From positions 120,037 through 140,036 of the forward strand of contig MU006110.1 of NCBI GenBank assembly GCA_010093705.1: DNA of 20,000 nucleotides, in the 5' to 3' direction. Each line of letters opens with the position of its first letter. The stretch's first letter is position 1. Made by a program: the position numbers and the translations under genes. The stretch comes from Patellaria atrata CBS 101060. Lineage: Eukaryota. The notes under the pieces are model-generated. The model saw only the letters and a list, made by a program, of their open reading frames with translations. It searched no databases and was not told the origin of the DNA. Of this stretch, positions 1-2,488 are shown one piece after another.

Positions 1-2488
1 GTAAGTTAAGCACTATAACCGGGCTTTCTGTTATCTACACACCAATATTTGATATATGAAGTACTGAACGATTCCTTTCTCTAAAAGCTGACTTTGGAGT
101 ACGCGATGAAGATCACATCCTAGGAGCTCCGTGACGAAATAACTATCACTCTGGAATTAGTAAAATTCACACCAACAACCCTTTTTCAAACGTACATATC
201 TTCTAACGGAGAAATATATATGTCACTAAGGGTAATAACCTGGAAATTGTCAGCTTGTCGGGTGTTTTGAGAATAAGGCCACGAACGTTTTCGTGTTGGA
301 TCTCTTTGAGGAGCTTTAACTCGCGATATGTACGTTTCGCTAGAACGGGGTTGTCGAAAGGTTTCAGAATCTTCTTGATGGCAACATGTCGTCCAGTAAG
401 TATGTCTTTGGCCTTACTGCGGAAATGTCAGCACTAAATGTGTGGTCTAAGTAACGGGGAAGAACACAAACCAAACGAGGCCGAAAGTGCCCATGCCAAC
501 TGGCTGCAGTTCAACATATCTTTCCAATTATTTCAGTAATGCAATCAGTGAGCCAGTCCCCATATTCTCTTACCTTCTCGTGAGTTCAAATGATGTACCA
601 AAGACATAGGTACACATAAAATCGGAGTTAATGGATACTTCTCCGTTTGATTTGCTTTCATTCATTTCTATATCGGCCGTTTCTTTCACACTTTCGTCGG
701 GATCATTATCATATATAGTGTGATCGGTCGTCGGCTTCAGATCCGTGAAAAAAGTCTCCTTGCTGGGAGAGAAATTTAAATAAGGCGGACACGTCGGCAG
801 GACATTGATCTTGCTAGCAGTAGAATGATACTGACTTTGAGCTACATCGGGTACGGTCCATTCGAGGAGACGCTCTTTCTGCGCTGGTACGGTCCAGGGA
901 ATCGTGGTTGTGGGTTCTTGATGATGAGAAACCAATTTCTGGATTTTATATTGCCACCTACTGCTATGTCTGGTATTAGGAAATTTGGGGGTCTTCGCGA
1001 GCTGTGTGCGGTGAATGCGGACGATTCGGATTGTGCTCCTATCGCTGCGTAATCTTTTGTGAAGCGCATTAATGCCAGAATCATTACTATAATCCATATC
1101 GTCTGCCCCTCGTTTCGTCAGGGTCTTGGGCATGTAGTTGTGCGCTGATATCTCGTCCGGACGGTATGGTAGCGGCAACGGTTTGCGAGCAGCGTCAAAC
1201 CATATGTTGCATACAGAACTAGGTTTAGTGAGATAAGAATCACAAGCGATTGAAAAAACTCCTTACCATGAACTACCGCCGCCTTTATGCGGTTCGAATG
1301 TTGTAGATTTGCAACCAGGTCTAGGACACCTGTTTGAGCCCCTCCAATCATACTGGCCTATGATTATCGCCATTGTAATTCTCATCCCTGGTATAAGTGT
1401 CTCGCTATCCTCATGGCCAGAGATATCCTGCGTACTGTCCATAGAGTTGAAAAGTTCAAACTCACCAGCTAGAACCTTTTCATAGCCTGGTCCATTTCTA
1501 AACTGTTCCACAAGAACAGCTCGGAGTTTCTGAAATCTTTTAGTTTCAATGACGTAGATGACAACATATCTTGGAGTCTTACACCCCAAGTATACTCTGA
1601 GGGGACTGGAAATACACGTCCCATAGCATCCTCAAATCGTACTGGTTCTTGGAACCATGTGTACTGCAAATTCGGTACAGGACCGGAAGTCTGAATATCC
1701 GTCAAGATAGTGATGATTTTCAAGTTCGAGTTCCAAATGTTTTTAGTGAGTTCGATGAGTTGCCTTAATTGCGGAAGCATATCCCTATGATCTACTCAGT
1801 ATCCTCACTTCTTCAGTACAGTCAAAATTTCACATCTTACCGTGTTACCAACTTCGAGAGTCGGATTAATATTGAATTGTTGCTCCGCGTAAGAATATCG
1901 CCTTGGATCACAAGCTCGTGCGTGGTCGCAAGAGCTGTACTTACGCTCTCAATACCGCTACTTATGTCCATTCGAGCTTTACCTGTTTCTTCCACTGCCA
2001 TAGAAGCTGACTTCCTAGAAAACCTCAGTCTTTTCTTACCTTACCAGGTTTAGGCCAACTTACAGTCCCTCGGTCATTAGTCTCATGTTCAGACTCCCCA
2101 CATGAGCTATCAGGTACGCTCTCAAATTAGAAACCTCATCTGCCATCTTAAAACGCCATTTTACTTTATCTCCGATTCTCTTCACTGTCGCTCTCCTAGA
2201 GGTCTGCTCGGGAGCATCGGTAAGACTCTCAAACTTCTTCAACTTTGCTGCAAACTCGTCTAGGGGATATTGACACATGAGGGCGGCGACCTTAATGCTA
2301 TTTGTAACTGCTTCGCGGCCGGGTGGGCACGGGAGATGCTCGATCTCTCGAAGAGCCCGTTGAAGGCCATGGAGTTCGAGTATTAGCTCACGGTATTCTG
2401 CTACGGAGGAGCCCTGGAGAGATGATGTGATATCCGCAATCAATTTACCAACAGCGATAAAGTCACCAACCGAAAACCCAAAAGACAT
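1..2488 (-). CDS. Multi-exon fusion protein: SesA/HeLo-like N-terminal domain + fungal ubiquitin-like domain + Cys4 motif + Hog1/p38-like MAP kinase domain (3' end outside window)
   Basis: Hand-spliced exons 2488-2064, 2014-1841, 1784-1583, 1529-1267, 1218-574, 519-472, 416-287, 239-196 and 142-43 give 677 codons with no stop. All eight introns are GT..AG and 47-56 nt, and a ninth starts at 42. N-terminus [16 protein letters not shown]; middle [20 protein letters not shown]...[15 protein letters not shown]...[23 protein letters not shown]; kinase [94 protein letters not shown], closely resembling fungal Hog1. Confidence 0.85.

What the first reader, a model, noticed from the sequence alone, without database searches (positions are those of the whole stretch)
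43..2488. Hog1-like MAP kinase fused behind SesA/HeLo-like, ubiquitin-like and Cys4 modules
Seen: exon 5 (1218-574) runs without a stop from the Cys4 motif into the kinase start, so the ~550-aa N-terminal region and the kinase form one spliced ORF. The Gly loop (GMGTFG), the VAIK lysine and the alphaC glutamate (YRE) are intact. Known: canonical Hog1/SakA is a standalone, highly conserved ~360-aa kinase, and [14 protein letters not shown] N-termini typically head fungal NLR/STAND-associated proteins. Inference: a duplicated HOG1 was captured into an immune- or cell-death-type module. It could act as a kinase-gated effector, loosely analogous to the MLKL architecture, or as an integrated decoy for factors targeting the HOG pathway.
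Basis: partly seen in the sequence, partly recalled or inferred. Interest (0 to 1): 0.85.

Follow-up and report, generated by a model that had tools for sequence, protein, structure and literature searches.

The report
Hog1 paralogue fused behind HeLo-like module
In the fungus Patellaria atrata, one uninterrupted spliced reading frame joins a helical-bundle, ubiquitin-like and zinc-ribbon protein to a complete but fast-evolving copy of the stress kinase Hog1; public annotation splits this into two genes, and if it is made as one protein it is a new kinase-coupled member of an undescribed fungal family.

Summary
On the minus strand, nine GT..AG exons (2488 to 43) give 677 codons without a stop. 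Exon 5 (1218-574) runs from the second Cys pair into the kinase.

The window is Patellaria atrata CBS 101060. GenBank has two adjacent models: a 355-aa ULD protein (P0001) and a 343-aa MAP kinase (P0088).
- P0001 is truncated. It reads into intron 4 (TG|GTAAGG reads as W-stop). Long homologues and 19 of 28 metagenome loci splice there and continue as C-x2-C..WF.
- Once intron 4 is spliced, the upstream frame has no stop before the kinase.
- The 87-codon unique linker has coding-type codon usage. Only 1 of 300 stop-free null sequences reaches its score.
- The kinase keeps the catalytic Lys, HRD, DFG and TGY. It is only 75% identical to canonical Hog1 and has the longest branch of 43 Hog1s.

No RNA data, no second species with this architecture and no check for a canonical HOG1 were available. 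A real fusion is likely (about 0.6). The MLKL-like or decoy function is inference. "SesA" is not supported. PigL_N (HeLo-like) is supported only through homologues.

The parts
2064..2488 (-). Exon 1 (aa 1-142). It holds the start ATG at 2488-2486 and the N-terminal helical domain with the conserved [10 protein letters not shown] start.
   Evidence: It is 100% identical to P0001. It is homologous to 998 representative proteins at E <= 0.001. In the AF2 model, helices 7-24, 30-50, 59-70 and 73-90 plus the start of the long helix 98-180 fall in this exon.
1841..2014 (-). Exon 2 (aa 142-200), part of the long coiled helices.
   Evidence: AF2 helices 98-180 and 188-232.
1583..1784 (-). Exon 3 (aa 200-267), the end of the helical region and the start of the ULD_2 beta-grasp.
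   Evidence: Pfam ULD_2 profile positions 3-22.
1267..1529 (-). Exon 4 (aa 268-355), the rest of ULD_2 and the first Cys pair (CPRPGC).
   Evidence: Pfam ULD_2 profile positions 29-83, 27.8 bits. For the whole domain in P0001: 51.6 bits.
1219..1266 (-). Intron 4 (48 nt, phase 2 after TG, donor GTAAGG). Left unspliced it reads TGG TAA, which is where GenBank model P0001 ends.
   Evidence: An intron at the same place restores C-x2-C..WF in 19 of 28 related loci. Long homologues read through this point.
888..1218 (-). Exon 5, first part (aa 355 to about 465): the second Cys pair (CSVC), WF, LPLPYR and the basic R-x-[DE]-R..R..LP/TP block shared with the family.
   Evidence: BLASTP of exon 5 residues 3-106 and 3-111 to P0010 (E 7e-11) and P0037 (E 8e-12). 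Alignment A1.
627..887 (-). Exon 5, unique 87-codon linker with no homologue found. It is predicted to be disordered.
   Evidence: There are 0 stops in frame. The codon-usage score is 0.212; stop-free null sequences score 0.006 +/- 0.082 (1 of 300 reach it), and true coding windows score 0.285 +/- 0.069. AF2 pLDDT is below 50.
775..782 (-). TATA-like TATTTAAA inside the linker, followed by a CT-rich run. It is a possible internal or relic promoter of the kinase.
   Evidence: The codon score of the surrounding third (800-714) is only 0.01.
574..626 (-). Exon 5, last part: the Hog1-type N-terminus ([18 protein letters not shown]). The ATG at 617-615 is GenBank's kinase start and has T at -3.
   Evidence: A further in-frame ATG lies at 665-663.
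472..519 (-). Exon 6 (aa 570-586), containing the Gly loop GMGTFG.
   Evidence: Identical to P0088.
287..416 (-). Exon 7 (aa 586-629), containing the VAIK lysine and the alphaC glutamate (YRE).
   Evidence: Pkinase profile positions 17-59. 100% identical to P0088.
196..239 (-). Exon 8 (aa 630-644).
43..142 (-). Exon 9 (aa 644-677). The kinase continues beyond the window's left edge: P0088 residues 123-343 carry HRD, DFG, TGY and the C-terminal docking motif.

Best explanation
The locus is one gene encoding a chimeric protein of about 898 aa.

Shown:
- The N-terminal 555 aa belong to a widespread, uncharacterised fungal family. Its parts are a helical-bundle domain with a conserved MSFGFS start, long coiled helices, a ULD_2 beta-grasp, a Cys4 zinc-ribbon-like motif, a basic motif and a disordered tail.
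- In other fungi this family carries interchangeable C-terminal domains: acyl-carrier/PP-binding with or without thioesterase, C2H2 fingers, Sin3-type PAH, RA and AMPK-beta CBM.
- In Patellaria atrata the C-terminal position is filled, in frame and after an 87-aa linker, by a complete Hog1-type MAP kinase paralogue. It keeps every catalytic and activation-loop motif but evolves much faster than canonical Hog1.
- GenBank's two-gene split arises because intron 4 was not spliced in the upstream model.

Inferred, not shown:
- Both parts are on one transcript.
- The Hog1 copy acts as the family's variable sensor or bait domain. Phosphorylation of its TGY loop by the HOG-pathway MAPKK, or binding or modification by something that targets Hog1, would be relayed to the N-terminal helical bundle.
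- By analogy with HeLo, MLKL 4HB and plant CC domains, that bundle would act on membranes or in oligomerisation.
For: 1. The frame is continuous over 9 exons and 677 codons, with canonical introns.
2. The upstream GenBank model is truncated.
- It ends at W-stop inside intron 4.
- Long homologues continue with C-x2-C..WF..LPLPYR and a basic block that exon 5 also has. BLASTP gives E 7e-11 and 8e-12.
- 19 of 28 related metagenome loci have a 46-76-nt intron at the same place.
3. After that splice there is no stop before the kinase, and no credible further intron lies within exon 5.
4. The unique linker looks translated in this frame.
- The chance of it being stop-free is about 0.003-0.006.
- Its codon score is 0.212, inside the range of true coding windows. 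It is reached by 1 of 300 stop-free intergenic-type simulations and 0 of 300 stop-free shuffles. The off-frame scores are negative.
5. Hog1 homology extends three residues upstream of GenBank's Met. The position of the canonical initiator Met is Asn. The ATG at 617 has T at -3.
6. The kinase is intact. Pkinase covers profile positions 1-263 of 263 at E 8e-67. The Gly loop, VAIKK, HRDLKPSN, DFG, TGY, APE and DPSDEP are present.
7. The kinase is a divergent paralogue.
- It is 75% identical to P0151. P0151's 90%-identity cluster of 1174 members spans several Pezizomycotina classes.
- Its end branch is 1.17 against a median of 0.1.
- 25 of 184 columns that are at least 95% conserved in the other Hog1s are changed.
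8. The family's C-termini are variable, in annotated proteins and in raw DNA.
9. The stretch is contiguous in two independent contigs with 0 differences.
Against: - GenBank holds two adjacent models, KAF2835247.1 and KAF2835246.1. I could not see what evidence they were built on.
- No transcript data exist here, so one mRNA is not shown.
- The architecture is a singleton in every set I examined. No kinase domain appears in 0 of 87 'longer' hits (precomputed Pfam), 0 of 61 long family proteins, 0 of 82 alignment members, or 0 of 80 metagenome loci covering 559 kb.
- The middle third of the linker (800-714) has a codon score of only 0.01 and holds a TATA-like element. In-frame ATGs at 665 and 617 could start a stand-alone kinase.
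- The presence of a canonical HOG1 elsewhere in this genome was not verified.
- The N-terminal domain's link to HeLo and MLKL is indirect.
Confidence: 0.6

Rival explanations
1. There are two transcription units. The Hog1 paralogue is made on its own from an internal promoter within exon 5, starting at ATG 665 or 617. The upstream gene is expressed separately. The open frame between them is a recent accident, for example loss of the upstream stop and terminator, with little or no fused protein made.
For: - GenBank annotates a stand-alone 343-aa kinase from ATG 617.
- TATA-like elements lie at 782 and 950, with a CT-rich run after 782.
- The sub-window 800-714 has a low codon score of 0.01.
- No other fungus shows the fusion.
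Against: - With intron 4 spliced, the upstream ORF has no stop of its own. A separate upstream mRNA would therefore be non-stop or would need intron retention.
- The linker as a whole has coding-type codon usage in the joining frame.
- Hog1 homology runs upstream of Met 617, the ancestral start position is Asn, and ATG 617 has a poor context.
Confidence: 0.25
2. The GenBank models are right as they stand. Intron 4 is retained, the upstream protein ends at W355 with half a Cys4 motif, and 1266-618 is untranslated spacer.
For: - The P0001 model says so.
- Several public homologues also end at that W: P0004, P0016, P0025 and P0027.
Against: - The W-stop is what a TG|GTAAGT donor reads as when left unspliced.
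- 19 of 28 loci restore C-x2-C..WF by splicing there.
- Long homologues continue past this point.
- Exon 5 residues 3-111 are homologous to those continuations at E about 1e-11.
- The 'spacer' is stop-free and codon-biased.
Confidence: 0.08
3. It is an assembly or sequence artefact that joins two unrelated loci, or a decaying pseudogene pair.
For: The architecture is a singleton. The kinase evolves fast.
Against: - Two independent contigs (records of 25,783 and 36,063 bases) cover 1-3200 with 0 differences and no joints.
- All nearly invariant family residues and all kinase motifs are intact, with no frameshift or stop in 898 codons.
Confidence: 0.03

Closest known systems
Canonical fungal Hog1/SakA/OS-2 (p38-type MAPK), and known Hog1 duplicates such as Aspergillus MpkC (recalled) or the two HOG1 copies of Hortaea werneckii (search listing only)
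   Same: It has a full Pkinase domain, the TGY activation loop, the catalytic Lys, HRD and DFG, and the C-terminal acidic docking motif. It is 75% identical over 334 aa without gaps.
   Different: - It is far more diverged than orthologues, whose 90% cluster spans Pezizomycotina classes. It has the longest branch of 43 Hog1s.
- Several changes at otherwise invariant positions cluster at residues 103-113. From recall of MAPK structure, that region is the alphaD-alphaE docking-groove area.
- It sits in frame behind a 555-aa foreign N-terminal region.
PigL_N (PF17111, formerly Helo_like_N) plus ULD_2 (PF22893) proteins of Pezizomycotina, e.g. P0010 (Lepidopterella palustris), P0037 (Zopfia rhizophila) and P0003 (Fusarium keratoplasticum)
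   Same: Exon 1 is 63-65% identical to these proteins. The order of parts is the same: helical domain, ULD_2, Cys4 motif, LPLPYR, basic block. The phase-2 intron is conserved.
   Different: - Their C-termini are tails of unknown type, C2H2 fingers, PP-binding with or without thioesterase, PAH, RA or AMPK-beta CBM. None has a kinase.
- The family has no described function. Searches for PF22893, and for HeLo-like with ubiquitin-like domain, found 0 papers.
MLKL and plant MLKL-like proteins (four-helix bundle, brace, kinase-like domain)
   Same: The order is an N-terminal helical bundle followed by long helices and a C-terminal kinase fold. The MLKL 4HB structure (4btf) aligns to model residues 8-139 at Z 8.9, rmsd 2.8, 97 residues, 18% identity. 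HeLo-like domains are regarded as MLKL 4HB homologues (passages of PMC9815663 and PMC12881547).
   Different: - Here the kinase is a CMGC MAPK with all catalytic residues, not a pseudokinase.
- A ULD, a zinc ribbon and a linker of about 200 aa lie between the two parts.
- The fold match is within the range of unrelated helical bundles.
Fungal NLRs with HeLo-like N-termini, and plant NLR integrated decoys
   Same: The same N-terminal domain heads the NACHT-ankyrin proteins P0069, P0070, P0075 and P0278 and the HET protein P0056. Rx_N, the plant CC domain, matches 3 of 82 family members. The C-terminal position holds copies of domains from core cellular proteins.
   Different: The ORF has no NOD (NACHT or NB-ARC) and no repeat domain. 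Nothing shows that it guards or senses anything.
Protein kinase D ubiquitin-like dimerisation domain
   Same: A beta-grasp ULD lies N-terminal to a kinase. Structure 6ra0 aligns to model residues 246-326 at Z 7.2.
   Different: It is only a fold-level resemblance shared with ubiquitin, UBX and ISG15. The kinase family is different.

Membership tests
Hog1/p38-type MAP kinase | Complete eukaryotic protein kinase domain with the catalytic Lys, HRD and DFG | tested here: met
   In P0088, Pkinase covers profile positions 1-263 of 263 at E 7.9e-67. VAIKK is at residue 42, HRDLKPSN at 135 and DFG at 155. Exons 6-9 in the window are identical to P0088 residues 16-122.
Hog1/p38-type MAP kinase | T-G-Y activation loop | tested here: met
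   TGY is at P0088 residue 167. It lies outside the window and is known only from the public protein of the same contig.
Hog1/p38-type MAP kinase | Orthologue-level conservation (Pezizomycotina Hog1 proteins cluster at 90% identity or more) | tested here: not met
   It is 75% identical to P0151. P0151's 90% cluster has 1174 members from several classes. P0088 is alone in its own cluster. Its end branch is 1.17 against a median of 0.1.
Hog1/p38-type MAP kinase | Stand-alone protein of about 350-370 aa starting just before the FGT..FE..RY motif | tested here: inconclusive
   The frame is open for 555 codons upstream, and the canonical start position is Asn. In-frame ATGs at 665 and 617 exist. 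No transcript data were available.
ULD_2 (PF22893) | Pfam match above the gathering score, with a beta-grasp fold | tested here: met
   The score is 51.6 bits against a cut-off of 24.5, at residues 245-324. The model matches ubiquitin, UBX and Hub1 (Foldseek prob about 1.0, E 0.014-0.09) and ISG15 at Z 7.5.
PigL_N / Helo_like_N (PF17111) | Pfam match of the protein itself | tested here: not met
   Exon 1 gave no match at E <= 1. P0001 gave none at E <= 0.01.
PigL_N / Helo_like_N (PF17111) | Homology through intermediates | tested here: met
   39 of 82 aligned homologues match PF17111 at E <= 0.001. Some score above the 27.2-bit cut-off, e.g. P0294 at 36.3 bits and P0274 at 31.7 bits. These same proteins match exon 1 at E of about 1e-20 to 1e-22.
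SesA (PF17107) | Pfam match | tested here: not met
   P0001 and the exons gave no SesA match. SesA is not among the 12 families matched by the 82 members of A2.
MLKL-like executioners | N-terminal four-helix bundle of the MLKL/HeLo type | tested here: inconclusive
   4btf_A scores Z 8.9, Rx CC Z 9.0 and NRG1 CC-R Z 7.9. Unrelated helical bundles score Z 9-11, and the tool warns that Z below about 13 is common for helical models. Foldseek gave no match at E <= 0.001.
MLKL-like executioners | C-terminal pseudokinase that acts as a phosphorylation-operated switch | tested here: not met
   The kinase keeps all catalytic motifs, so it is not a pseudokinase by sequence. Switch behaviour cannot be tested with these tools.
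NLR/STAND | Central NOD (NACHT or NB-ARC) domain | tested here: not met
   No such match was found in any exon or in P0001 or P0088. Only relatives of the N-terminal domain carry one.
Integrated-decoy receptor | A fused copy of a cellular target whose perturbation activates the receptor | not testable with these tools
   Only the prerequisite is seen: a diverged extra copy of a signalling hub at the family's variable position.

The most novel reading that the evidence does not exclude
The PigL_N-ULD_2-zinc-ribbon proteins are a NOD-less family of fungal sensor-executioners. A HeLo/CC-like N-terminal bundle is held in check by, or reports on, an interchangeable C-terminal bait copied from core cellular hubs. 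These baits include the Hog1 MAPK in P. atrata and, elsewhere, Sin3 PAH, AMPK-beta CBM, acyl-carrier domains and C2H2 factors. The Patellaria protein would then be a natural MLKL-like device built on an active stress MAPK. It would fire when the HOG pathway is hyperactivated or when Hog1 is attacked by a competitor's toxin or effector.
Probability: 0.15. Interest if true: 0.85.

Novelty: new variant of a known kind. Interest (0 to 1): 0.6.

Why it matters
Hog1 is among the most conserved stand-alone kinases of fungi. A natural in-frame fusion of an intact, fast-evolving Hog1 copy to a domain type that heads fungal NLRs would be the first link between a MAPK module and the HeLo/MLKL/CC-type bundle in fungi. 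It offers a simple system to test:
- Does TGY phosphorylation switch the N-terminal domain?
- Is the N-terminal domain toxic or membrane-targeted?

The wider family is itself worth attention. It has hundreds of representatives and no literature in the library I searched, and its C-terminal domains borrowed from core machinery look like a bait repertoire.

There is also a practical point. A conserved phase-2 intron after TG reads as W-stop when unspliced, so many public gene models of this family are systematically truncated. That hides the real C-terminal domains.

Tried and rejected
- Whole genome: none is held. The kinase could not be extended from DNA, and a canonical HOG1 could not be searched for.
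- Exon 5 against longer proteins: 382 candidates, none at E <= 0.001.
- RNA evidence: no RNA holder is listed. The two listed runs are contigs that include introns and intergenic DNA with no joints, so they are DNA-like.
- Earlier scan notes: nothing for this genome and nothing by words. By sequence there was only an unrelated Naegleria MAP kinase note.
- Canonical Hog1 of P. atrata: not seen among the 40 members read of the 1174-member cluster. That is uninformative.
- Further introns inside exon 5: the only candidates start 4 nt after the acceptor and would delete the conserved block, so I rejected them.
- Foldseek against PDB: no match at E <= 0.001.
- PDB profile search with A2: only non-significant zinc-ribbon hits, eL43/L37Ae and ubiquitin-S27a at E 0.15-0.24.
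- Whether the RA domain of P0047 is Ste50-like: the only hit was afadin at E 0.0011. I dropped the idea.
- AF2 of exon 5: mean pLDDT 52 with one helix. This is compatible with a disordered linker but cannot tell coding from non-coding.
Nothing was folded.
- Literature:
  - 'PF22893': 0 papers.
  - 'HeLo-like' + 'ubiquitin-like domain' + 'fungal': 0 papers.
  - 'Helo_like_N' + 'Pkinase': 3 papers hold both terms, 2 were listed, and I opened only PMC9815663, where no such fusion appeared in the passages shown.
  - 'Patellaria atrata': 26 papers hold the term; I saw only the 10 listed titles and abstract starts, and nothing there concerns this locus.
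Full report
**What is in the sequence**

The minus strand of 43-2488 holds an intron-rich fungal gene. I located the junctions and joined the exons by coordinates.
- The exons are 2488-2064, 2014-1841, 1784-1583, 1529-1267, 1218-574, 519-472, 416-287, 239-196 and 142-43.
- All eight introns are GT..AG and 47-56 nt long.
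- The product is 677 codons with no stop and runs off the left edge of the window.
- An in-frame stop precedes the ATG at 2488 (ORF 2060..2521).
- Exon 5 is open from 1218 to 574 (ORF 570..1262). It starts with the second Cys pair and ends with a Hog1-type N-terminus.

**Identity and public annotation**

Exon 1 is 100% identical to P0001, a 355-aa hypothetical protein of Patellaria atrata CBS 101060. Exon 7 is 100% identical to P0088, a 343-aa 'kinase-like protein' on a contig of the same length, 332,670 bases. Their GenBank accessions are consecutive. The public record therefore has two adjacent genes.

P0001 ends ...GGGSSW. This is the reading of the intron-4 donor left unspliced: TG|GTAAGG becomes TGG TAA. 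P0088 starts at the in-frame ATG at 617.

P0088 supplies what the window lacks. HRDLKPSN, DFG, TGY, APE and the acidic C-terminal docking motif are all intact. Pkinase is matched end to end at E 7.9e-67.

**The upstream model is truncated**
- Long homologues from other fungi continue past the equivalent W with C-x2-C..WF..LPLPYR, a basic R-x-E-R..FKN.R block and LP.TP. Examples are P0010, P0037, P0011, P0020, P0029, P0003 and P0005.
- Exon 5 aligns to this continuation (A1). BLASTP aligns residues 3-106 to P0010 at E 7e-11 and residues 3-111 to P0037 at E 8e-12.
- An annotation-independent check agrees. Of 28 metagenome loci with an exon-4-type match reaching query residue 70 or beyond, 19 have a 46-76-nt GT..AG intron at the same place, and removing it restores C-x2-C..[WFYC][FHYW]. 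A stricter first pass found 10 of 36.
- Several public models that end in W at this point (P0004, P0016, P0025, P0027) probably share the same artefact.

**No stop, and a linker that looks translated**

With intron 4 spliced, the upstream frame meets no stop before the kinase. The only intron candidates inside exon 5 would delete the conserved block.

Between the end of family homology (about 888) and the start of Hog1 homology (about 626) lie 87 unique codons.
- A stop-free stretch of this length and composition arises in about 0.3% (100 codons) to 0.6% (87 codons: 300 of 49,485 simulations) of trials.
- I trained a codon-usage log-odds score on five other ORFs of the window. The linker scores 0.212 in frame and -0.34 and -0.47 out of frame.
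- Stop-free sequences simulated from intergenic DNA score 0.006 +/- 0.082, and 1 of 300 reach the observed score. Stop-free shuffles score 0.023 +/- 0.075, and 0 of 300 reach it.
- True coding windows score 0.285 +/- 0.069, which puts the linker at their 21st percentile.

Against this, the middle third (800-714) scores only 0.01 and contains TATTTAAA at 782 followed by a CT-rich run. A second TATA-like element lies at 950.

Hog1 homology runs three residues upstream of Met 617 (SDF against AEF). The canonical initiator position is Asn. ATG 617 has T at -3, and ATG 665 has G at -3.

AF2 of exon 5 gives one helix (residues 47-62) and pLDDT below 50 over the linker.

Two independent contigs of public runs cover 1-3200 with 0 differences. 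They may derive from the source reads.

**The kinase is a divergent paralogue**
- P0088 is 75% identical (249 of 334, no gaps) to P0151. P0151's 90%-identity cluster of 1174 members includes Sordario-, Leotio-, Eurotio-, Orbilio- and Lecanoromycetes.
- In a quick ML tree of 43 Hog1 proteins, P0088 sits in the ascomycete group with the longest end branch: 1.17 against a median of 0.1.
- 25 of 184 columns that are at least 95% conserved in the 42 others are changed. One other row shows more changes (P0184, 33).
- Several changes cluster at residues 103-113. From recall of MAPK structures, that region is the alphaD-alphaE docking-groove area.

I could not verify that the genome has a canonical HOG1.

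**The N-terminal module**

P0001 matches only ULD_2, at 51.6 bits against a cut-off of 24.5. Neither exon 1 nor P0001 reaches PF17111, which this Pfam copy names PigL_N (formerly Helo_like_N).

Of the 82 members of alignment A2:
- 80 match ULD_2.
- 39 match PF17111 at E <= 0.001.
- 3 match the plant Rx_N coiled-coil domain.
- None matches SesA or a kinase.

The same N-terminal domain heads the NACHT/NPHP3_N-ankyrin proteins P0069, P0070, P0075 and P0278 and the HET protein P0056.

The AF2 model has mean pLDDT 84.5. It shows four short helices, two very long ones (98-180 and 188-232) and a beta-grasp at 245-325.
- Foldseek found ubiquitin, UBX and Hub1 for the beta-grasp at E 0.014-0.09, and nothing at E <= 0.001.
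- VIA-align found Rx CC (Z 9.0), MLKL 4btf (Z 8.9, 18% identity), Sw-5b, NRG1 CC-R and a wheat resistosome. Unrelated helical bundles scored Z 9-11, which the tool says is not decisive.
- Published work treats HeLo-like domains as MLKL 4HB homologues and as NLR N-terminal effectors. I saw passages of PMC9815663 and PMC12881547.

**The family has variable C-termini**

Among 61 family proteins of at least 380 aa (12, 49):
- 4 carry C2H2 fingers.
- 7 carry PP-binding, one of them with a thioesterase.
- 2 carry PAH.
- 1 carries RA.
- 1 carries HET.
- 4 carry NACHT-ankyrin.
- None carries a kinase.

I then read the exon downstream of the conserved intron directly from DNA in 11 loci. It gave PP-binding in 2, PAH in 2, the AMPK-beta glycogen-binding module in 1, and nothing in 6.

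No kinase homologue of P0088 lies anywhere in the 80 loci, which cover 559 kb. None of the 87 'longer' hits has a precomputed kinase domain.

The Patellaria architecture is therefore a singleton in what I could see. It does fit the family's habit of swapping the C-terminal domain. Because models of this family are often truncated, annotated proteins under-report such fusions.

**Reading**

The best-supported statement is structural: one ORF of about 898 aa joins the family module to an intact Hog1 paralogue, and GenBank's split is partly an annotation error. Whether one mRNA carries both is not shown. I put the fusion at about 0.6, separate expression of the kinase from an internal promoter at about 0.25, and the rest on the annotated state or an artefact.

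The function is inference. The Hog1 copy may be the sensor or bait whose phosphorylation or perturbation is relayed to the helical bundle.

The family itself seems undescribed in the library I could search (0 papers). A complex prediction that might have tested contact between the two halves could not be run.

Noticed in passing
window 1219-1266; loci L001, L002, L009, L013-L015, L017, L021, L024, L025, L027, L032-L034, L036, L037 and others: A conserved phase-2 intron follows TG right after the first Cys pair, so the unspliced reading is W-stop. Many public models of this family end at that W (P0001, P0004, P0016, P0025, P0027) and are probably truncated. 19 of 28 loci restore the second Cys pair by splicing there.
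   Followed up: yes
L037:7331-7735, L017:7163-8005, L027:7152-7868, L009:2875-3492, L001:3231-3890: In raw DNA, the exon after the conserved intron encodes domains borrowed from core machinery. L037 has the start of the AMPK-beta glycogen-binding module, L017 and L027 have Sin3-type PAH, and L009 and L001 have PP-binding. The family's C-terminal position looks like a swap site.
   Followed up: partly
window 775-782 and 944-950 (minus strand): TATA-like elements (TATTTAAA and TATAAAA) lie inside exon 5. The first is followed by a CT-rich run about 110-160 nt upstream of the in-frame ATGs at 665 and 617. It may be a relic or still-active promoter of the Hog1 copy.
   Followed up: partly
window 3258-3966 and 4792-5223 (minus strand): Two or three ORFs upstream of the gene have weak to moderate matches to Bys1 (Blastomyces yeast-phase-specific protein, PF04681), with E from 6e-08 to 9e-05. 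This is probably a small tandem pair of secreted Cys-containing proteins.
   Followed up: no
window 2592-2627: An (AT)n microsatellite lies about 120 nt upstream of the start codon. The read-laying tool skipped it as a repeat.
   Followed up: no
P0001 residues 326-364 region of profile A2: The Cys4 block gives weak, non-significant profile hits to C4 zinc-ribbon ribosomal proteins (eL43/L37Ae, and ubiquitin-S27a at E 0.15-0.24). The ULD-then-zinc-ribbon order recalls the ubiquitin-S27a fusion.
   Followed up: no
window 8906-9834, 9994-10521, 12969-14714, 15461-17086, 17732-18340: The neighbours are ordinary housekeeping genes: enoyl-CoA hydratase, a rhodanese-domain protein, dihydroorotate dehydrogenase, a thioredoxin/PDI-like protein and the complex I NDUFA5 subunit. 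There is no NLR, secondary-metabolite or transposon context.
   Followed up: partly
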